A stretch of DNA of 64,000 nucleotides from Ignavibacteriota bacterium (GCA_016707525.1 JADJHP010000003.1:76677-140676), one strand, 5' to 3'; shown: positions 1-56,629, numbered from the stretch's first letter. The notes: generated by a model from the letters alone, not told the origin. A program made the numbers and translations.

Positions 1-164
1 AGTCCGGCTTTGCTGAGCCGCTGGAGAACCTTCGCGAGGAGGTCGTAAGGAATGCCGTAGCGGTCGGAGATCTCCTTCGCGGTCACAAGGTCACCCCCCG
101 ACCGCGCAGCGATATCGCGGATGGCGATGAGCCCATATTCTACTCGTTTTGAGAGTCTGACCAT
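1..164 (-). CDS. Rrf2-family transcriptional regulator, partial (runs off the window start)
   Basis: Reverse-complement translation from ATG at 164-162 gives MVRLSKRVEYGLIAIRDIAARSGGDLVTAKEISDRYGIPYDLLAKVLQRLSKAG, the typical Rrf2 (IscR/NsrR-like) N-terminal wHTH; not in the ORF track because it is truncated by the window edge. Confidence 0.7.
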   Translation of the reverse strand, partial: MVRLSKRVEYGLIAIRDIAARSGGDLVTAKEISDRYGIPYDLLAKVLQRLSKAG

Positions 165-337
165 GTTCGATATACGACCAATACAGTCCGAGTTACCTGC
201 CGAAAAAATGCGCCTTCAGGCGCTGTACCATAATAACAGCGGAACGGGCATATTCGTTCCGAAACCATCAAAAGATAATGGTTTTCATCGTATTTTTCAA
301 TACCCCATCGACGGGGCGGTGGCCCGGGGGGCCCCCA

Positions 338-26812: not shown

Positions 26813-27601
26813 TCAGATCGTATCGAGCGCCCGGCGGAACGCCGCGGTCCACACACGGGTGCCACCCGGCGAAGGATCGCTCTCCAGCTGCCGGAGAAGT
26901 GCCGAACCCACGATCACGCCGTCGGTGTCGCGGGCAAAGGTCACCGCATCCTCAGGCCGCGAGATCCCGAATCCCACGAGCATCGGGTTGCGCGTGACAT
27001 GCGCACGCACCGCACGGACGTTGTCGAGCGCCGAACCGGCCACGGCCCCGCCGGTCACGCCGGTGGTGGACACGCAGTACACGAATCCCGACGACGCAGC
27101 ATCGATCGCACGCACGCGCGCCGGAGGCGTCGTGGGCGTCGCGAGCAAGATCCCGGCCAATCCCGCGGATGTCACCGCCGGCGCATACGAGCTCCACTCC
27201 TCCAGGGGCAGCTCGGGAAGGATCAGGCCGTCAACCCCGGCAGCAGCCGCATCGACGAAGAATCTGTCCACTCCATAGCGCATGATCGGATTGAGATATC
27301 CCATGAGCACCAGTGGGACACCGGACCGCTGCCTGATCCGTGCAACGAGTTGCAGGATCCACGGCAGGGTCACGCCGTTCGCGATCGCCGTGCCGGACGC
27401 CTTCTGGATGACCGGACCATCGGCGAGGGGGTCCGAGAACGGAACCCCGATCTCCACGATGTCCGCCCCGCCATCCTCAAGTGCGCACACGAGGTCTGCC
27501 GTTGCATCCAGTGTCGGATACCCGGCGGTGAGGAACATGGCAAGCGACCGCCTGCCCTTCGTTGCATTGCCGCTCAACCGTTCTTGGAGTTTCATCGTCA
27601 T
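26813..27601 (-). CDS. trpA: tryptophan synthase alpha subunit
   Basis: 262 aa; TrpA family. Confidence 0.9.
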
Positions 27602-28800
27602 AGGTTCGCGTATGTTGTCATATCCTTGTCACCCCGCCCCGACACGTTCACCAGGATGAGGGGTGAGCCGGTGGTGCGCGGCGCGAGCTTTTCCAGCCAT
27701 GCAAGAGCATGCGCAGACTCGAGCGCGGGGATGATCCCTTCGAGGCGGGAAAGCAGTTTCGCCGCGGCAAGGGCTTCCTGATCTGTCACGGCAACATACT
27801 CCACCCGCCCGGCATCCTTCAGCGCGCTGTGCTCGGGGCCGACGCCGGGATAGTCCAATCCCGCGGAGATCGAGTGGGCAAGTTGCACCTGTCCGTCATG
27901 GTCCTGCAGCAGATAGCTGAGGGAACCGTGCAGGACACCGGGAGCTCCCAGCGAGAGCGTCGCGGCATGCTGCCCGGACGTGAGGCCGTGCCCGGCAGCT
28001 TCGACGCCGATCATGCGTGCCCTCGTGCCCAGGAACGGCTCGAAGAGCCCGATGGCGTTGCTCCCTCCCCCGACGCACGCCAGCAGGATATCCGGATCGC
28101 GTCCTTCAGCGGCACGCACCTGCTGCATTGCCTCTTCACCGATCACGCTCTGGAAATCGCGAACGATGGCGGGGTACGGATGAGGGCCAACGACCGATCC
28201 GATGATATAGAATGTATCGCGGACGTTGGTCACCCAATCCCGGATCGCTTCGCTCGTCGCATCCTTGAGCGTGCGCGTCCCGGAATGGACCGGCACCACG
28301 CGCGCACCGAGCATTTCCATCCTGCGCACATTCAACTGCTGACGCTCGATGTCCTCGTCGCCCATGTACACATCGCAGGCAAGTCCCATCCGCGCGGCCA
28401 CCGTGGCCGTTGCCACCCCATGCTGCCCGGCACCCGTCTCGGCAATGATCCGCTTCTTCCCCGATCGTTTTGCCAGAAGGATCTGACCGATGGTGTTATT
28501 GATCTTGTGTGCCCCGGTATGGCAGAGATCCTCCCGCTTCAGGTAGATCTTCACCTTTCCGTAGTGTGCGGCAAGGCGGTCGGCGCGTGTGATCGGCGTG
28601 GGCCGCCCGGCAAAGGTCGTCAGGAGTTCGCGCAGCTCTGCCGTGAATGCCGGGTCCTTCCGCGCGTCCTGATACAACGCCTCGAGTTCGTCCAGCGCGG
28701 GAATGAGGGTCTCGGGCACATAGCGGCCACCGTACGCTCCGAAATAGCCCCGTGCATCGGGCATACCTCCGGGAGCAAGTGCAGCAGGAGCGTGTGTCAT
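27598..28800 (-). CDS. trpB: tryptophan synthase beta subunit
   Basis: 400 aa; PLP site HTGAHKINN. Confidence 0.95.
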
Positions 28801-29828
28801 GTGGTGCTTCCTTCGTTCAGTGTTCTTCCAACCACCGGCGCGAGCCGGCGGATATCATCCATCAGCGCAGCAAAGCGGGATGGTTTCAAGGACTGTGCGC
28901 CATCCGAAAGTGCGGCAGCAGGATCCGGATGGACCTCGATCATCAGCCCATCCGCCCCCGCCGCGATCGCGGCCATGCTCATCGCCGGAACAGCTTCCCA
29001 GATCCCGACACCGTGACTCGGATCCACGATCACAGGCAGGTGGGTGAGCCGCTTGAGGACGGGGATCGCATTCAGATCCAGCGTGTTCCGTGTCGCCGTT
29101 TCGAACGTCCGGATCCCCCGCTCGCACAGGATGATCTGCAGGTTGCCGCGGCTCGCGATGTACTCTGCCGCCATCAGCAGTTCCTCGATCGTCGCGGCGA
29201 TGCCGCGTTTGAGCAGCACCGGTATGCGGAGTTCGCCGACGGCCTCCAGGAGACTGAAATTGCTCATGTTCCGTGCGCCGATCTGCAGCACGTCCGCCAC
29301 TTCCGCCACGGCGGGGAGGGTGCCCGTATCCTTCACTTCCGTCACGATCGCAAGCCCCGTCTTCTCGCGCGCCTCGCGGAGAAGGACCAATCCTTCTTCC
29401 TTCATGCCCTGAAAACTATACGGCGACGAACGTGGTTTGAATGCGCCGCCCCGCAAGAACTGTGCACCTGCCGACTTCACGTTTCGCGCAACGGTAACGA
29501 TCTGCTCCCGGCTCTCCACCGAGCAGGGCCCGGCCATCACCGCAAGTTCGGGCCCTCCAATGCTCGCTGTCCCGACCTTGATCACGCTGCTCTCCGGCCT
29601 CGCCTCACGACCGACGAGCTTGTACGGCTTGGAAACCGGTATCGCCCGTTCCACACCGGGCAGGATCGTGAACACATCCGCGGCGATCGCGCCGTGATTA
29701 CCGGTGATGCCGATGGCCGTCCGCTCCGCCCCGGGTATCTCGTGGGCCCGGAATCCGAGATCGCCGATCTTCAGCATCACTTCCCGGACCTGGTCCGGCG
29801 TCGCATCCTGTCGCATCAGGACGAGCAT
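28797..29828 (-). CDS. 3-deoxy-7-phosphoheptulonate (DAHP) synthase, type I-beta with N-terminal regulatory domain, embedded in the trp operon
   Basis: 343 aa; KDO8P/DAHP synthase I-beta TIM barrel ([23 protein letters not shown]); 4-nt overlaps with trpB and trpF. Confidence 0.85.
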
Positions 29829-29831
29829 CTG

Positions 29832-30476
29832 TCATCTCCCTTGTGCTTCACGTGAACGATCCCATGCCAACGCCTTGAGTGCCGCATGGACGAACGCCCT
29901 CACCTTCTCATGATCCTTGATACCCGGCGCCACTTCCACGCCGCTGCTCACGTCCACACCCATGGGACGTGCTTGTCTGATCGCTTCCGCAACATTCGCC
30001 GGCGAGAGTCCGCCGCCCAGGATCACGGGCCCATGCCCGGCAGCCGCCCGTGCGATGCTCCAATCGAACACCTGGCCGGTACCGCCATGCACACCGGCAA
30101 CGAAGGTGTCCAGCACGTGGGCATCCACGCGATATGTTCCCACGCTGGCCGGATCGAAATCGGGTCCCACACGGTGTGCCTTCAGGACGCGGACCGGCAG
30201 GCCTTCCGTCTCCGCCGGCGACTCCTCCCCATGCAATTGTACCGCCTTCACCCCGCTCCTCCGGATCGCATCGAGGATCGCGGCGCGTGGCGCATTGACG
30301 AACACGCCGACCGTCACGATATCATTCGGGATGGACCGGACGATGTCCGCAACGGCATCAGGGCTGATGCACCGCTTACTCGAAGGCACGAAAATGAAGC
30401 CCAGCATGTCGGCACCCGCATCGAGCGCGCACAGGGCATCGTCACGCCTGGTGATCCCGCAGATCTTCACCCTCAT
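29832..30476 (-). CDS. trpF: phosphoribosylanthranilate isomerase
   Basis: 214 aa; MRVKICGIT N-terminus. Confidence 0.9.
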   Translation of the reverse strand: MRVKICGITRRDDALCALDAGADMLGFIFVPSSKRCISPDAVADIVRSIPNDIVTVGVFVNAPRAAILDAIRRSGVKAVQLHGEESPAETEGLPVRVLKAHRVGPDFDPASVGTYRVDAHVLDTFVAGVHGGTGQVFDWSIARAAAGHGPVILGGGLSPANVAEAIRQARPMGVDVSSGVEVAPGIKDHEKVRAFVHAALKALAWDRSREAQGR

Positions 30477-31261
30477 GCGCGGACCCCGGCAAGCACGTCC
30501 CGGAGTGCCTCACCGGGATCGGGAGCCCGCATGAACCCTTCGCCGATCAGGAATGCATCGATGTTGTGGGACCGCAGCATGCGTATATCTGCAGCGGACT
30601 GGATACCTGACTCGCTCACGCAGACCACATCGGAACCGATCAGGCCGCGCAGTCGCACCGACGTCTGCATATCCGTCGCAAATGTCGCAAGGTCACGATT
30701 GTTGATCCCGACCACGGGGAATCTTCCGCCCTCCAGCGCACCCACTTCCTCTTCATTGTGCACTTCCACGAGGACGCCGAGGCCGAGTTCATCGGCAAGG
30801 GCTTTGAGCTCATTCAGCAGGATGCGGTCCAGGGCGGCGACGATGAGCAGGACCGCATCGGCCTGGTACGCTCGCGCTTCATGAAGTTGATAGGGGTCAA
30901 GGATGAAATCCTTGCGGAGGACAGGCACCGCATGTCCTGCACGAGCAAGCGCCATGTAGTCCAGATGGCCCTGGAAGAACGGAACATCCGTGAGCACGGA
31001 GAGCGCCGCGGCGCCCGCCGCTACATACGACCGTGCGATCGCCGGTACGTCCATATCAGCGCGGATGACGCCCCGGGAGGGCGATGCTGCCTTGATCTCC
31101 GCGATGACCGCGGGGGAACGTTGGCGCAGGGCAAGTTCGAATGGCCGGCGGGGCACGTGATAGCCGGGCATATCCATCAGTGCGGCAAGCGGGGCCCTCT
31201 GCTTACGGGCGTCCAGGTCCTCCTGTGTGCGCCGGAGGATCGCGTCGAGATAGGTGCTCAT
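30473..31261 (-). CDS. trpC: indole-3-glycerol phosphate synthase
   Basis: 262 aa; IAEIKAASPS motif. Confidence 0.9.
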   Translation of the reverse strand: MSTYLDAILRRTQEDLDARKQRAPLAALMDMPGYHVPRRPFELALRQRSPAVIAEIKAASPSRGVIRADMDVPAIARSYVAAGAAALSVLTDVPFFQGHLDYMALARAGHAVPVLRKDFILDPYQLHEARAYQADAVLLIVAALDRILLNELKALADELGLGVLVEVHNEEEVGALEGGRFPVVGINNRDLATFATDMQTSVRLRGLIGSDVVCVSESGIQSAADIRMLRSHNIDAFLIGEGFMRAPDPGEALRDVLAGVRA

Positions 31262-32271
31262 GCTCTGTTCGTGAACTCCACCAGTGCCTTGAGGGTTGCC
31301 AGCGCGCGGCCCGAGTCGATCGCTTCCGCCGCGAGGCGTGTCCCGGCCGTCAGGTCGGCGGCCTTGCCTGCCACAAAGATCCCCATCCCTGCGTTGGCGA
31401 GAACGATATCACGACCCGGAACCGGTTCGGCCTGGAGGATGCTGAGCGCAATACGGGCATTTGTTTCAGGATCCCCACCCTTCACGGCGTCGTGCGGCGC
31501 TGTCGCAAGCCCGAAATCGGAAGCTTCGACGATATACCTGCGCACAGGCCGATCCCCTCCCACCTCGTGGACCGACGTCGGCCGTGCGAGGCTCACTTCA
31601 TCCATCCCGTCATCGCTGTGGATCACGCACGCTTTGTCCGTGTCCAGCACGTGCAGCGCACCGGCGAGCCGCCGGGCCACATCATGATGATAGGTCCCGA
31701 GCACCTGGCGCCGCACGCTGGCAGGGTTGGTGATCGGACCGAGCATATTGAAGATGGTCCTGACGCCAAGCTCCTGACGCGCTTTCGCCGCGAACTTCAT
31801 CGCGGGATGGAACAACGGAGCGAACAGGAACCCGATCCCGACGGTATTCACGCACGCCTCCACGCGGTCCGGTGCCAGTTGTGTCTTCACGCCGAGCGCA
31901 GCGAGCACATCGGCGCTGCCGCTGCGGCTCGACACGGAGCGGTTGCCGTGCTTCGCAACGGTCACGCCCGCGCCGGCAGCCACGAGCGCGGCCACCGTGG
32001 AGATATTGAACGTATCGCGTCCATCCCCACCGGTACCGCACATATCGATGGCGTCGCCATCGTCGGTGGTGATCCGGACCGCATGGGCACGCATCGTTCG
32101 CGCGAACCCGACGACCTCGGATTCGCTCTCCCCTTTTGCGCGGAGTGCGATGAGCAATCCGGCGATCTGCGCATCCGTAGCGGTGCCGCTCATGATCCTC
32201 TCCAGGGCATCCGCTGCCTCGTCGATCGACAGGTCCTGCTTCTCCAGACACTTCTCGATATAGTGCTTCAT
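31258..32271 (-). CDS. trpD: anthranilate phosphoribosyltransferase
   Basis: 337 aa; CGTGGDG motif. Confidence 0.9.
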   Translation of the reverse strand: MKHYIEKCLEKQDLSIDEAADALERIMSGTATDAQIAGLLIALRAKGESESEVVGFARTMRAHAVRITTDDGDAIDMCGTGGDGRDTFNISTVAALVAAGAGVTVAKHGNRSVSSRSGSADVLAALGVKTQLAPDRVEACVNTVGIGFLFAPLFHPAMKFAAKARQELGVRTIFNMLGPITNPASVRRQVLGTYHHDVARRLAGALHVLDTDKACVIHSDDGMDEVSLARPTSVHEVGGDRPVRRYIVEASDFGLATAPHDAVKGGDPETNARIALSILQAEPVPGRDIVLANAGMGIFVAGKAADLTAGTRLAAEAIDSGRALATLKALVEFTNRA

Positions 32272-32837
32272 GACAGCCTCTCCACCCAGTTCCTGAGAAT
32301 TTGCATGCCCTCTGTGGTCAGGATCGATTCGGGGTGGAATTGCACGCCTTCCACCGGCAACGTCCTGTGACGCACGCCCATGATCACGCCATCCTCGGTC
32401 TCCGCGGTGATCTCCAGAGCATCAGGCAGCGAGGAACGCTCGACGACCAACGAATGGTAGCGCGTCGCATCGAAGGGATCCGACACGCCCCGGTACAGCG
32501 ACGTTCCGTGATGCCGCACGCGCGATGTCCGTCCGTGCATCAGCGACGGCGCGTGGATGACGGATCCGCCGAAGGCGGCGCCGATCGCCTGATGGCCGAG
32601 GCAGACGCCGAAGAGCGGGAACGAGGTACTACAGTGGCGGATGACGTCAAGGGTGACGCCGGCATCCTCCGGTCGGCCGGGGCCGGGGGACAACAGGATC
32701 CCGTCCGGCGCCAATGTTGTGATCTCGTCGACGGTCACGGCATCGTTGCGGCGCACCAAGAGATCGGTGCGGAAGGTGCCGAGTGCCTGCACGAGATTGA
32801 ACGTGAAGGAATCATAGTTGTCGATCACGAGGATCAT
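32268..32837 (-). CDS. trpG: anthranilate synthase component II (glutamine amidotransferase)
   Basis: 189 aa; class I GATase triad (GVCLGHQ). Confidence 0.9.
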   Translation of the reverse strand: MILVIDNYDSFTFNLVQALGTFRTDLLVRRNDAVTVDEITTLAPDGILLSPGPGRPEDAGVTLDVIRHCSTSFPLFGVCLGHQAIGAAFGGSVIHAPSLMHGRTSRVRHHGTSLYRGVSDPFDATRYHSLVVERSSLPDALEITAETEDGVIMGVRHRTLPVEGVQFHPESILTTEGMQILRNWVERLS

Positions 32838-34324
32838 TGTGCACCTTCCTCCTGCCCGTCGGGCGCGGCGAGCCCGCGTGAGGCGAGACGTATCGCCTCC
32901 ATGAGCACCCGCGCCTTGTTGACCGTTTCGTCGTATTCATTCGACGGCACGGAGTCGGCAACGATCCCCGCGCCCGCCTGCAGCTTCAACGTTTGTCCAT
33001 GCGCGAACACCGTGCGTATCGCGATACAGGTATCCATCGTGCCGTCCATGCCGAAATACCCCACGGCGCCTGCGTACGCTCCACGCGGAAAGGGTTCGAG
33101 GTCAGCGATGATCTCCATCGCACGCACCTTCGGGGCACCCGAGACCGTCCCTGCAGGGAAGCACGATTCAAAGATGCCCACCGCGTCGATGTCCGGACGG
33201 ATCCGGCCGCGCACTTCCGAAACGATGTGCATCACATGCGAATAGCGGTCCACGCGCTTGAAGACCGGCACTTCCACGGAACCGTACTCGGAGACCCGGC
33301 CAACGTCGTTGCGCCCGAGGTCCACAAGCATCACATGCTCGGCAAGTTCCTTGGGATCGGCGAGAAGGTCCAGTTCAAGACGTTTGTCGTCGGCTTCATC
33401 CACACCGCGGCGCCGGGTACCGGCGATCGGCAGAAGCTCCACTGTGCCGCCGTGTGCCTGGATGAGCATTTCCGGCGAAGAGCCGGCGAGTTTGGTAGCG
33501 CCGAAATCCAGGAAGAAAAGGTACGGGGATGGATTGATGATGCGCAGGGAACGATAGACGGCAAAGAGATCGCCGGTGAACGTACTGCGTGTCCTTCGTG
33601 AGAGCACCACCTGAAAGATATCGCCTTCGGTGATGTGTTCTTTCGCACGAAGCACGGCCTGCTCGAACCCCGCGCGGTCCGGTTCACCCGCTCCATCCAT
33701 CGCACAACTGAACGGCGTGGCCGGTGCGGTCACTCTCCGCAGGCGGAGTTCCAGCGCAGACAGGGCGGCCTTCCCCGATTCGTACTGGTCTTCCAGTGGC
33801 GCCGCCGGGTCGATGAAGACATTGTGCATGAGCGTCATGACCTGCCGGTGATGGTCGAACTGCACGACCGAGCCGAACAGGCCGAGGATCGCATCGGGCT
33901 CCTCACCCGCTGCGGGCGTGATAGGTATCCGTTCGATGTGCCTGACGCAGTTGTACCCGATGTATCCCACAAGTCCGCCAAGCAGCCCGTGGGGCTCCTG
34001 CACCGGTGCGATCCTGTGCGGTGCGAGGATACTGCGGATGACGGAGAACAGCGGGCCCTGCACCTCCTCCGTTCCCCTGGCATCGCGCACGGTCACCGAT
34101 CCGTTGCGGGCTTCGAGGATCACCCGCGGACGCGTGCCGATGAACGAAAAGCGTCCGATCTTTTCGTTCGGTTCGACGCTCTCCAGGATGAAGGACGGCA
34201 CCCCCTCTTCACGGAGCGTGAGGTAGGTCAGGACCGGGGTCAAGGTATCCGCCACCAGGGTCCGCACGAGCGGGATCACGGTGTACGAAGCTGCCAGTTG
34301 CCTGAATGTTGCGAACGGTATCAT
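32834..34324 (-). CDS. trpE: anthranilate synthase component I
   Basis: ORF 32834..34384 trimmed to MIPFATFRQ (ATG 34324), preceded by a GGGAGG Shine-Dalgarno; chorismate-binding domain. Confidence 0.9.
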   Translation of the reverse strand: MIPFATFRQLAASYTVIPLVRTLVADTLTPVLTYLTLREEGVPSFILESVEPNEKIGRFSFIGTRPRVILEARNGSVTVRDARGTEEVQGPLFSVIRSILAPHRIAPVQEPHGLLGGLVGYIGYNCVRHIERIPITPAAGEEPDAILGLFGSVVQFDHHRQVMTLMHNVFIDPAAPLEDQYESGKAALSALELRLRRVTAPATPFSCAMDGAGEPDRAGFEQAVLRAKEHITEGDIFQVVLSRRTRSTFTGDLFAVYRSLRIINPSPYLFFLDFGATKLAGSSPEMLIQAHGGTVELLPIAGTRRRGVDEADDKRLELDLLADPKELAEHVMLVDLGRNDVGRVSEYGSVEVPVFKRVDRYSHVMHIVSEVRGRIRPDIDAVGIFESCFPAGTVSGAPKVRAMEIIADLEPFPRGAYAGAVGYFGMDGTMDTCIAIRTVFAHGQTLKLQAGAGIVADSVPSNEYDETVNKARVLMEAIRLASRGLAAPDGQEEGAQ

Positions 34325-34332
34325 GGACCTCC

Positions 34333-34373
34333 CATAAAAACGAAAAAACCCTTCCTGGCTGTCAGGAAGGGTT
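34333..34373 (-). terminator. trp attenuator terminator: AACCCTTCCTG-ACAGC-CAGGAAGGGTT hairpin plus UUUUUUCGUUUUUAU tract, immediately 5' of trpE
   Basis: Read directly from the minus strand; 11-bp GC-rich stem with a 5-nt loop followed by a U-tract; ends 9 nt before the trpE ATG. Confidence 0.85.
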
Positions 34374-34400
34374 GTGCATGGCACAACGATGGAAAAGACA

Positions 34401-34484
34401 CTAACCTCCTGCAGGTTGCGGGCTCATCATCGTGCGCCACCACCAGGACGACAGGTTTGTGCGATATGCGTTGACGGATTTCAT
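34401..34484 (-). CDS. trpL: trp operon leader peptide MKSVNAYRTNLSSWWWRTMMSPQPAGG (three consecutive Trp codons)
   Basis: Manual translation of the minus strand: ATG at 34484; TGG TGG TGG at 34445..34437; TAG at 34403..34401. Not in the ORF track (<60 aa). Confidence 0.85.
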   Translation of the reverse strand: MKSVNAYRTNLSSWWWRTMMSPQPAGG

Positions 34485-34492
34485 GATGGTGC

Positions 34493-34521
34493 AATATACG
34501 TGCAGAGGGGTGTCGTGTCAA
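34493..34521 (-). promoter_or_regulatory. trp operon promoter: TTGACA(-35) / 17-bp spacer / TATATT(-10), -10 placed 8 nt upstream of the leader ATG
   Basis: Minus strand reads TTGACAcgacacccctctgcacgTATATTgcaccatcATG; consensus sigma70 hexamers with optimal spacing. Confidence 0.6.
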
Positions 34522-34542
34522 GCGAAAAGTGGCAACGCGGTG

Positions 34543-38943
<4,401 letters not shown>

Positions 38944-56557: not shown

Positions 56558-56629
56558 TCCGCGATAGCTCAATGGTAGAGCATGCGGCTGTTAACCGCAG
56601 GGTTGCAGGTTCGAGTCCTGCTCGCGGAG
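56558..56629 (+). tRNA. tRNA-Asn (anticodon GTT)
   Basis: Manual cloverleaf: acceptor TCCGCGA/TCGCGGA, D-arm GCTC/GAGC, anticodon stem TGCGG/CCGCA with loop CTGTTAA, T-arm GCAGG-TTCGAGT-CCTGC; no encoded CCA. Confidence 0.85.

What the first reader, a model, noticed from the sequence alone, without database searches (positions are those of the whole stretch)
34325..34521. Complete, textbook-style trp attenuator with a WWW leader peptide
Upstream of trpE, the minus strand encodes a 27-aa leader, MKSVNAYRTNLSSWWWRTMMSPQPAGG*, with three consecutive TGG codons (34445..34437). The leader stop region (CCTGCAGGAGGTTAGTG) is a near-copy of the terminator 3' arm, so it can pair with the 5' arm (CACAACCCTTCCTGACAG) as an antiterminator. 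A strong intrinsic terminator follows (AACCCTTCCTG-ACAGC-CAGGAAGGGTT plus UUUUUUCGUUUUUAU) and ends 9 nt before the SD-ATG of trpE. A consensus TTGACA-17-TATATT promoter sits so that the leader ATG is ~8 nt from the -10, a near-leaderless leader mRNA. All elements of ribosome-mediated attenuation are readable directly. This is unexpected outside Proteobacteria-like lineages if the organism is FCB-group.
Basis: seen in the sequence. Interest (0 to 1): 0.7.

Follow-up and report, generated by a model that had tools for sequence, protein, structure and literature searches.

The report
Tryptophan operon leader-peptide attenuator
This is a real, evolutionarily conserved tryptophan-sensing "leader peptide" switch in front of the trp biosynthesis operon of an uncultured Bacteroidota/Ignavibacteria-type bacterium: a well-known kind of regulator found in a lineage where it is not catalogued, but not a new mechanism.

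Summary
- an 11/12 sigma-70-type promoter;
- a 27-codon ORF with three consecutive UGG codons, starting 8 nt after the -10;
- an 11-bp terminator with a U-tract;
- then trpE, heading a trpEGDCF-DAHP synthase-trpBA operon.

Chance is excluded by conservation, not by the UGG run (1 found in the window, 0.73 expected). Fourteen further loci, about 9 lineages in all and labelled Bacteroidota/Ignavibacteria where labelled, carry the same promoter, near-leaderless Trp-run mini-ORF and terminator upstream of trpE. The peptide sequences diverge.

Folding supports ribosome-mediated attenuation:
- **Ribosome at the Trp codons:** the stop-codon region pairs with the terminator 5' arm.
- **Ribosome at the stop codon:** that strand is masked.
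- **No ribosome:** a 20-bp hairpin holds the Trp codons.

This strand co-varies with each lineage's own terminator (p≈2.5e-4).

Caveats:
- The terminator is always the equilibrium state, so the switch must be kinetic.
- In the window the antiterminator dominates for only about 6 nt of transcription.
- It is weak in L088 and L007.

There is no Rfam, Pfam or NCBIfam match. Leader-peptide trp attenuation, including leaderless versions, is known in Proteobacteria, Actinobacteria and Deinococcus. Verdict: new member of a known kind, modest interest.

The parts
34516..34521 (-). -35 hexamer TTGACA of the trp leader promoter
   Evidence: Promoter scan, 11/12 match. TTGAC(A/T) is conserved in all 15 family members.
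34493..34498 (-). -10 hexamer TATATT, 17-nt spacer from the -35. The predicted transcription start is around 34487..34484, giving a 5' UTR of 0-3 nt.
   Evidence: TATATT is invariant in all 15 members while the spacer sequence is not conserved. The start site is inferred from the spacing, not measured.
34401..34484 (-). Leader-peptide ORF (27 codons plus UAG): MKSVNAYRTNLSSWWWRTMMSPQPAGG*. It has no Shine-Dalgarno sequence and its ATG lies 8 nt after the -10.
   Evidence: Orthologous mini-ORFs of 24-34 aa have their ATG 6-15 nt after the -10. The peptide sequence is not conserved apart from the Trp run.
34437..34445 (-). Three consecutive UGG (Trp) regulatory codons, codons 14-16
   Evidence: Trp runs (WWW, WWWW, WCWW, WRWW, W-x-x-W) sit in frame at codons 14-22 in all family members.
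34423..34443 (-). Region 1: the Trp codons and downstream sequence, forming the 5' strand of the 20-bp no-ribosome hairpin (a candidate pause / anti-antiterminator helix)
   Evidence: MFE of the free leader. The segment 34447..34374 folds at -29.2 kcal/mol.
34374..34397 (-). Region 2b: the 3' strand that pairs with region 1 when no ribosome is present
   Evidence: helix 34443..34423 x 34397..34374.
34405..34414 (-). Region 2a: the antiterminator 5' strand CUGCAGGAGG, inside the last four leader codons just upstream of the stop codon. A terminating ribosome masks it. It can alternatively sit in a local hairpin (34420..34413 x 34407..34399).
   Evidence: Constrained folds. The equivalent strand lies at -25..+23 relative to the stop codon in every lineage. 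It co-varies with each lineage's own terminator.
34359..34369 (-). Partner of region 2a in the antiterminator: the terminator 5' arm plus loop (CUUCCUGACAG)
   Evidence: 10-bp helix 34414..34405 x 34369..34359; conformation -18.8 kcal/mol.
34347..34373 (-). Intrinsic terminator (attenuator) hairpin, 11 bp with a 5-nt loop
   Evidence: The ACCCTTCC / GGAAGGG core is conserved in most relatives.
34334..34346 (-). U-tract of the terminator (UUUUUUCGUUUUU)
32834..34333 (-). trpE with its GGGAGG ribosome-binding site (34333..34328) and ATG at 34324. It is the first gene of the regulated operon.
   Evidence: Pfam. tblastn alignments of relatives begin at residue 1.
26813..32837 (-). Remainder of the operon: trpG, trpD, trpC, trpF, a DAHP synthase with a ferredoxin-like N-terminal domain, trpB and trpA. 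The ORFs are tightly packed or overlapping.
   Evidence: Pfam and ORF coordinates.

Best explanation
This is a ribosome-mediated (leader-peptide) transcription attenuator of a trpEGDCF-aroG-like-trpBA operon.

Transcription starts at a strong sigma-70-type promoter. The transcript begins at, or within about 3 nt of, the AUG of a 27-codon leader ORF, so the leader is translated as a leaderless or near-leaderless mRNA.

- Trp-tRNA plentiful: the ribosome runs to the UAG stop and covers the G-rich strand CUGCAGGAGG that lies in the last four codons. The terminator hairpin (34373..34347) plus U-tract then forms and transcription stops about 20 nt before trpE.
- Trp-tRNA scarce: the ribosome stalls at the three UGG codons roughly 30 nt upstream. 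The G-rich strand stays free and pairs with the terminator's 5' arm and loop as they emerge. The terminator is blocked and RNA polymerase reads into trpE.
- Leader not translated at all: the UGG region pairs with a downstream segment in a 20-bp hairpin, and termination is the default.

Shown: the sequence anatomy, its conservation, and the position-dependent alternative pairings in silico. Inferred: the transcription start site, translation of the leader, and the actual response to tryptophan.
For: 1. Anatomy is complete and correctly ordered.
2. Conservation: 14 further loci upstream of trpE share TTGACx-16/18-TATATT, an ATG 6-15 nt after the -10, a 24-34-codon ORF with an in-frame Trp run, about 11 codons from the run to the stop, 23-38 nt from the stop to the terminator 5' arm, and then a terminator. 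With the window they form about 9 lineages; the loci from named genome assemblies are all labelled Bacteroidota or Ignavibacteria. The peptide sequence itself drifts (4 of 27 residues differ between the window and L001, whose TrpE is 93% identical).
3. Among 160 TrpE-related loci, Trp-run leaders occur only in this group and in L091/92/94 (the first 95 loci were scanned); Chloroflexi, Acidobacteria and others lack them.
4. Constrained folding of the nascent RNA in the window:
   - stalled ribosome: antiterminator, -18.8 kcal/mol;
   - ribosome at the stop: 5' arm free;
   - no ribosome: 1:2b hairpin, -29.2 kcal/mol.
5. The same logic holds across the family. The fraction of the 5' arm paired upstream is higher when stalled than at the stop in all 15 members. 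It exceeds shuffles with Fisher p=1e-4 over 9 lineages.
6. Swap test: each lineage's ribosome-maskable strand pairs better with its own terminator arm and loop than with other lineages' (-15.8 vs -11.9 kcal/mol, permutation p=2.5e-4).
7. Rival RNA mechanisms are absent: no T-box, no TRAP-type repeats, no Rfam family.
8. Precedent for leaderless trp leader peptides: PMC4007540, PMC7298713.
Against: - No experimental data: the start site, leader translation and Trp response are all unmeasured.
- At equilibrium the terminator state wins in every scenario. Even with a stalled ribosome it is -30.2 vs -18.8 kcal/mol.
- In the window the antiterminator strand first folds into its own 8-bp hairpin. 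The antiterminator is the dominant state only while about 6 nt are transcribed. Estimated direct-path barriers are 7.9-12.7 kcal/mol to enter it, which may be slow relative to transcription.
- Taken singly, the antiterminator is not better than shuffles in L002, the L003 group, L082, L088 and L007. In the swap test L088 and L007 are poor.
- The UGG triplet run by itself is not statistically unusual in the window.
Confidence: 0.85

Rival explanations
1. Chance coincidence. An ordinary promoter for trpE, a terminator that really serves the upstream histidine-kinase gene, and a meaningless short ORF that happens to contain TGGTGGTGG.
For: TGGTGGTGG occurs about as often as expected in the window (1 vs 0.73). 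No terminator lies between the kinase stop (34543) and the promoter, so the hairpin could also stop kinase read-through.
Against: The promoter sits upstream of the terminator on the same strand, so the terminator interrupts the trpE transcript. The arrangement is conserved in loci whose upstream genes differ (L003, L004, L006, L082, L088, L079). The Trp run stays in frame in all 15 mini-ORFs.
Confidence: 0.02
2. A leader peptide senses Trp, but the output is not intrinsic termination switched by the 2a:3 antiterminator. Alternatives include Rho-dependent polarity, or stalled-ribosome effects on mRNA stability or trpE translation, with the hairpin acting as a constitutive partial terminator or a stabiliser.
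For: The kinetic window for the predicted antiterminator is narrow in the window sequence. The antiterminator is weak or not significant in several relatives. In L007 and L079 the terminator lies 167 and 91 nt upstream of trpE.
Against: The antiterminator strand co-varies with each lineage's own terminator, and its position at the stop codon is conserved. The hairpin has a canonical U-tract. The trpE ribosome-binding site is not sequestered in any predicted state.
Confidence: 0.08
3. The small RNA or peptide released by termination is the main functional product, acting in trans like Sinorhizobium rnTrpL/peTrpL, rather than or in addition to working as a cis regulator.
For: There is precedent for a leaderless trpL attenuator RNA and peptide with trans functions (PMC6614838, PMC7298713). 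The promoter is near-consensus, so the terminated roughly 150-nt RNA should be abundant under Trp sufficiency (inference).
Against: The peptide sequence is not conserved outside the Trp run. It matches no protein family. No target complementarity was sought or seen. The position immediately upstream of trpE is invariant.
Confidence: 0.05

Closest known systems
Escherichia coli / enterobacterial trpL attenuator (Rfam RF00513 Trp_leader)
   Same: Same logic. A short ORF with tandem UGG codons is followed by an intrinsic terminator. An antiterminator uses the terminator's 5' arm. An upstream hairpin involves the Trp codons. The terminator is the most stable helix, so the choice is kinetic.
   Different: - No sequence or structure match to RF00513 at E up to 10.
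- The leader is 27 aa rather than 14 aa, with three Trp codons rather than two.
- About 11 codons separate the Trp run from the stop, against 3 in E. coli (E. coli figures from established knowledge).
- The antiterminator 5' strand lies inside the last codons, rather than being the strand that also pairs with region 1.
- There is no Shine-Dalgarno sequence and the mRNA is near-leaderless.
- No TrpR-type operator is evident; the promoter spacer is not conserved.
Actinobacterial classical trp attenuators (Corynebacterium glutamicum, Streptomyces venezuelae/coelicolor)
   Same: Double or triple UGG leader peptides, GC-rich terminators with U-tracts, and 'complementary triples' shared by the antiterminator and terminator (PMC1262725). 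The design matches CAGGAGG / CCUUCCUG / CAGGAAGG here.
   Different: Different phylum and unrelated sequences. The conserved triple here is purine/pyrimidine-rich (GGAGG/CCUUCC) rather than gGCC-rGCy-GGCC.
Deinococcus deserti leaderless leader peptides, including trpEGD
   Same: The leader peptide is translated from a transcript whose start lies at or 1 nt upstream of the start codon, with no Shine-Dalgarno sequence (PMC4007540). Here the ATG lies 8 nt after the -10 (6-15 nt across the family).
   Different: In D. deserti the start sites were mapped by dRNA-seq; here the start is only inferred from the promoter spacing. Different phylum and no sequence relation tested.
Sinorhizobium meliloti trpL / rnTrpL attenuator
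   Same: A leaderless trpL upstream of trpE(G). The operon is apparently controlled by attenuation alone, without a repressor (PMC7298713, PMC6614838). From memory, its 14-aa peptide also carries WWW.
   Different: The peptide there is 14 aa, and trans-acting RNA and peptide roles have been shown. Nothing here suggests trans roles.

Membership tests
Ribosome-mediated (leader-peptide) transcription attenuators of amino-acid operons | Short ORF in the 5' leader with tandem codons for the amino acid made by the downstream operon | tested here: met
   A 27-codon ORF with UGG x3 lies upstream of trpE. The feature is conserved in 14 related loci.
Ribosome-mediated (leader-peptide) transcription attenuators of amino-acid operons | Intrinsic terminator between the leader ORF and the first structural gene | tested here: met
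   An 11-bp stem plus U-tract at 34373..34334, 22 nt from stem end to the trpE ATG. Present in all relatives.
Ribosome-mediated (leader-peptide) transcription attenuators of amino-acid operons | An antiterminator that excludes the terminator, and whose formation depends on where the ribosome sits | tested here: met
   Constrained folds, shuffle control with Fisher p=1e-4, and swap test p=2.5e-4. This is in silico only, and individually weak in L002, L003, L082, L088 and L007.
Ribosome-mediated (leader-peptide) transcription attenuators of amino-acid operons | The antiterminator forms fast enough co-transcriptionally to pre-empt the terminator | tested here: inconclusive
   The antiterminator dominates for about 6 nt of transcription in the window. 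Barrier estimates are 7.9-12.7 kcal/mol to enter and 12.7 kcal/mol to leave. The window is wider in L079, L004, L006 and L003.
Ribosome-mediated (leader-peptide) transcription attenuators of amino-acid operons | The leader ORF is on the transcript and is translated; read-through rises on starvation for the cognate amino acid | not testable with these tools
   The promoter position implies a start 0-3 nt before the AUG. No transcriptome, ribosome-profiling or reporter data are available.
Rfam RF00513 Trp_leader | Scores at or above the gathering threshold against the covariance model | tested here: not met
   No RF00513 hit even at E up to 10 in 33800..35000. The gathering-threshold scan of the whole window finds only a tRNA.
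Curated leader-peptide protein families (Pfam / NCBIfam) | Significant profile match of the peptide | tested here: not met
   No family matched at E up to 10 for the window's peptide or for one relative; the third peptide tested gave only a chance TadE hit at E=0.06.
T-box leader (tRNA-sensing) | T-box covariance-model match and the conserved T-box sequence | tested here: not met
   No Rfam hit and no T-box motif.
TRAP-dependent trp attenuation (Bacillus type) | About 9-11 (G/U)AG triplets separated by 2-3 nt in the leader | tested here: not met
   Only four (G/U)AG triplets are present, and the longest correctly spaced chain is 2.

The most novel reading that the evidence does not exclude
The element defines a distinct, homologous family of trp leaders confined to an Ignavibacteria/Kapabacteria-like branch of the FCB group. 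Members share an ACCCUUCC/GGAAGGG terminator core, an invariant TTGACx-17-TATATT promoter, and obligately leaderless or near-leaderless leader translation. The family is absent from Rfam. Its conservation would imply that this lineage maintains tight transcription-translation coupling with Shine-Dalgarno-independent, 5'-end-dependent initiation. That would make it a natural reporter for coupling and leaderless initiation in a phylum where both are poorly characterised.
Probability: 0.5. Interest if true: 0.45.

Novelty: new member of a known kind. Interest (0 to 1): 0.3.

Why it matters
It shows that classical Yanofsky-type attenuation operates, or at least is strongly selected for, in uncultured Bacteroidota/Ignavibacteria-type bacteria. 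It also supplies about 15 sequences from which a covariance model could be built to annotate these genomes.

Leader-peptide attenuation only works if the first ribosome follows RNA polymerase closely. The element is therefore indirect evidence for transcription-translation coupling in this lineage, and for efficient translation of an mRNA with essentially no 5' UTR.

A DAHP synthase sits inside the attenuated operon. Entry into the common aromatic pathway would thus also come under Trp control, which matters for metabolic reconstruction. None of this changes the understanding of the mechanism itself.

Tried and rejected
- **Rfam.** An E-value scan of 33800..35000 and a gathering-threshold scan of the whole window found only chance terminator-like hits (rnk_leader, RcsR1; E 3-5) and one tRNA.
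- **Protein families.** Pfam and NCBIfam scans of the leader peptides found nothing.
- **Formal covariation on the terminator.** MAFFT alignments (A1, A2) have register shifts on the 5' arm and the core helix is nearly invariant, so a pair count would say little. I used per-sequence folds and a cross-lineage swap test instead.
- **Source of the window.** Look-up by exact TrpE sequence: not on record.
- **Literature on trp attenuation in Bacteroidota/Ignavibacteria.** Nothing specific is in the held library. Merino, Jensen & Yanofsky 2008 (PMC2387123) is not held. From memory only, the abstract of Vitreschak et al. 2004 (FEMS Microbiol Lett 234:357) mentions candidate attenuators in Bacteroidetes/Chlorobi; I could not verify this.
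- **A second ORF.** A GVG-initiated 27-codon ORF overlaps the leader stop (UAGUG) and ends at the trpE ATGA. I read this from the sequence, and it is not conserved in L002 or L003, so I dismissed it as chance.
- **'AWW' mini-ORFs upstream of trpE in Acidobacteria loci.** These look like the C-terminal ends of a conserved upstream gene, not leaders.

Full report
**Observation.**
On the minus strand the region reads, in order:
- TTGACA (34521..34516), a 17-nt spacer, TATATT (34498..34493);
- 8 nt;
- ATG (34484) and a 27-codon ORF, MKSVNAYRTNLSSWWWRTMMSPQPAGG, ending in UAG at 34403..34401, with the three UGG codons at 34445..34437;
- a 27-nt gap between the UAG stop and the terminator;
- an 11-bp hairpin, AACCCTTCCTG-ACAGC-CAGGAAGGGTT (34373..34347), then TTTTTTCGTTTTT;
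- GGGAGG (34333..34328) and the trpE ATG (34324).

The promoter matches 11 of 12 positions and is the only such site within 2 kb.

**Context.**
Downstream, all on the minus strand and tightly packed, lie:
- trpE (32834..34324)
- trpG (32268..32837)
- trpD (31258..32271)
- trpC (30473..31261)
- trpF (29832..30476)
- a DAHP synthase with a ferredoxin-like N-terminal domain (28797..29828)
- trpB (27598..28800)
- trpA (26813..27601)

Upstream lies a 1466-aa CHASE/PAS hybrid histidine kinase ending at 34543. The window is about 62% G+C. The nearest TrpE relatives in species-representative genomes are MAGs labelled Bacteroidota or Ignavibacteria: 93% identity, then 68-55%, then one at 45%. Both labels fall in the FCB group. 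L001 (93%) also shares the upstream kinase gene and the leader. The FCB placement is therefore well founded, although the exact class is unknown.

**Is it more than chance?**
TGGTGGTGG alone is not unusual: 1 occurrence, 0.73 expected. The composite of promoter, ATG within 16 nt and mini-ORF occurs once on both strands of the window.

Conservation is decisive. Upstream of trpE, the following loci all carry the same arrangement: L001, L002, L003/L081/L085, L004/L005, L006/L084, L082/L083, L088, L007 (=L087) and L079. The shared features are:
- TTGAC(A/T), 16-18 nt, TATATT;
- an ATG 6-15 nt after the -10;
- an ORF of 24-34 codons containing WWW, WWWW, WCWW, WRWW or W-x-x-W at codons 14-22;
- about 11 codons from the Trp run to the stop;
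- 23-38 nt from the stop to the terminator's 5' arm;
- a U-tract terminator.

Their upstream genes differ, so the element travels with trpE. The peptides are otherwise dissimilar. Even the window and L001 differ at 4 of 27 residues, which is the signature of a leader peptide selected for its codons and RNA rather than its protein product. Most terminators share an ACCCTTCC...GGAAGGG core, suggesting one homologous family. L079 has an unrelated terminator sequence but the same architecture.

Among the 160 TrpE-related loci fetched, the Chloroflexi, Acidobacteria, Actinobacteria, Firmicutes and other loci examined lack such leaders.

**Mechanism.**
I folded the nascent RNA with the ribosome represented as a mask reaching about 13 nt past its A-site codon.

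In the window:
- *Ribosome at the UGG codons, 3' arm not yet made.* The lowest-energy structure pairs CUGCAGGAGG (34414..34405, the last leader codons) with CUUCCUGACAG (34369..34359, terminator 5' arm plus loop). This conformation is -18.8 kcal/mol.
- *Ribosome at the stop codon.* That strand is covered, and the 5' arm is free to form the terminator (-18.5 kcal/mol as an isolated hairpin).
- *No ribosome.* A 20-bp helix joins the UGG region (34443..34423) to 34397..34374 (-29.2 kcal/mol for the segment), and the terminator forms.

This is the classical three-state logic, with one difference from E. coli. The antiterminator's 5' strand is not the strand that pairs with region 1. It is a separate segment that sits inside the ORF's last codons.

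Across the family:
- The fraction of the terminator 5' arm paired upstream is higher in the stalled state than in the at-stop state in all 15 members.
- It exceeds dinucleotide shuffles of the intervening segment with p<0.05 in the window, L001, L006, L084 and L079. The combined Fisher p is 1e-4 over 9 lineages (an earlier version is).
- The antiterminator strand always lies at -25..+23 relative to the stop codon.
- In a swap test, each lineage's ribosome-maskable strand pairs better with its own terminator arm and loop than with those of other lineages (mean -15.8 vs -11.9 kcal/mol, permutation p=2.5e-4). This is compensatory evidence that does not depend on an alignment.

**Caveats.**
- With the whole leader present, the terminator state is always the equilibrium winner, even with a stalled ribosome (-30.2 vs -18.8 kcal/mol). 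This is also true of E. coli trp (established knowledge) and means the decision is kinetic.
- In the window, the antiterminator strand first forms a local 8-bp hairpin (34420..34413 x 34407..34399). Stepwise folding shows the antiterminator dominating only while about 6 nt are transcribed.
- Direct-path barrier estimates are 7.9-12.7 kcal/mol to enter the antiterminator and 12.7 kcal/mol to leave it. Whether it forms quickly enough cannot be settled with these tools.
- The interval is wider in L079, L004, L006, L003 and L007. The antiterminator is weak in L088.
- The transcription start, translation of the leader and the Trp response are all inferred.

**Alternatives excluded.**
- No Rfam family matches, including RF00513 and T-box.
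- There are no TRAP-type (G/U)AG repeats and no T-box motif.
- The peptide matches no Pfam or NCBIfam family.
- The promoter spacer is not conserved between lineages, so there is no sign of a repressor operator within it.

**Comparison with what is known.**
The element works like the E. coli trpL attenuator but is not a member of RF00513.
- Classical trp attenuators with double or triple UGG, and with complementary 'triples' shared by the antiterminator and terminator, are described for Corynebacterium and Streptomyces (PMC1262725).
- A trpEGD leader peptide whose transcript starts 1 nt before its start codon is described in Deinococcus deserti (PMC4007540).
- Sinorhizobium trpL RNA begins at its ATG (PMC7298713).

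The near-leaderless feature is therefore a known variation. I found no paper in the held library describing trp leader-peptide attenuation in Ignavibacteria or Bacteroidota. From memory, Vitreschak et al. 2004 reported candidate attenuators in Bacteroidetes/Chlorobi, but I could not verify this, and Merino et al. 2008 is not held.

**Verdict.**
The claim of taxonomic surprise is overstated, and there is a kinetic caveat. It is a new, uncatalogued member (in fact a small family) of a well-known kind of regulator. Confidence that it is a functional ribosome-mediated trp attenuator is about 0.85. Interest is modest, at 0.3.

Noticed in passing
window 28797..29828 (-): A DAHP synthase (DAHP_synth_1 plus an N-terminal ferredoxin-like domain) sits between trpF and trpB inside the attenuated operon. 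The first step of the common aromatic pathway would therefore be co-regulated by Trp-tRNA availability.
   Followed up: partly
L091 1085..1480 (also L092, L094; TrpE 48-49% identical, metagenome contigs of unknown phylum): A possible tandem arrangement. TTGACA-17-TATGAT is followed by the near-leaderless mini-ORF MSHNDGRVSKLDQDVRFGLFWWWHNAGSL and a terminator. A second Trp-rich stretch (...SWRCVLWWRRA) follows about 50 nt before trpE. A similar second stretch (TGGCGCTGCGC...TGGTGGCG) lies upstream of trpE in L089 and L090.
   Followed up: partly
L086 about 140..195 (upstream of trpE; TrpE 56% identical): This relative has no Trp-run leader. Instead it carries AT-rich repeated or palindromic motifs (TGTACAATGTACACTATCGTATAGTATGCAATGTATACTATGCA). 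This suggests that a protein operator replaced the attenuator in this lineage.
   Followed up: no
window 34493..34521 and the equivalent positions in L001-L007, L079, L081-L085, L088: An essentially consensus sigma-70 promoter (TTGACx-17-TATATT) is the most conserved feature of the family. From memory, Bacteroidia use a different promoter consensus (TTTG / TAnnTTTG), so this FCB branch appears to use canonical -35/-10 recognition.
   Followed up: no
window 34325..34333 and the trpE starts of L002, L003, L081, L085: The GGAGG-type ribosome-binding site of trpE sits only 3 nt from the ATG in several lineages, and it is absent in others (L082, L088). The spacing is unusually short. The same GGAGG motif also forms the antiterminator strand at the leader stop codon.
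   Followed up: no
L007 2834..3000 and L079 2910..3000: In these two relatives the attenuator terminator lies 167 and 91 nt upstream of the trpE match, rather than about 20 nt. The intervening sequence was not examined, so there may be a mis-set trpE start or an additional element.
   Followed up: no
L085 leader, codon 16: One Trp codon of the WCWW run is CGG (WCRW) in L085, compared with L003 and L081. This is a natural variant with fewer regulatory codons.
   Followed up: no
window 56558..56629 (+): A single tRNA gene is the only Rfam gathering-threshold hit in the 64-kb window.
   Followed up: no
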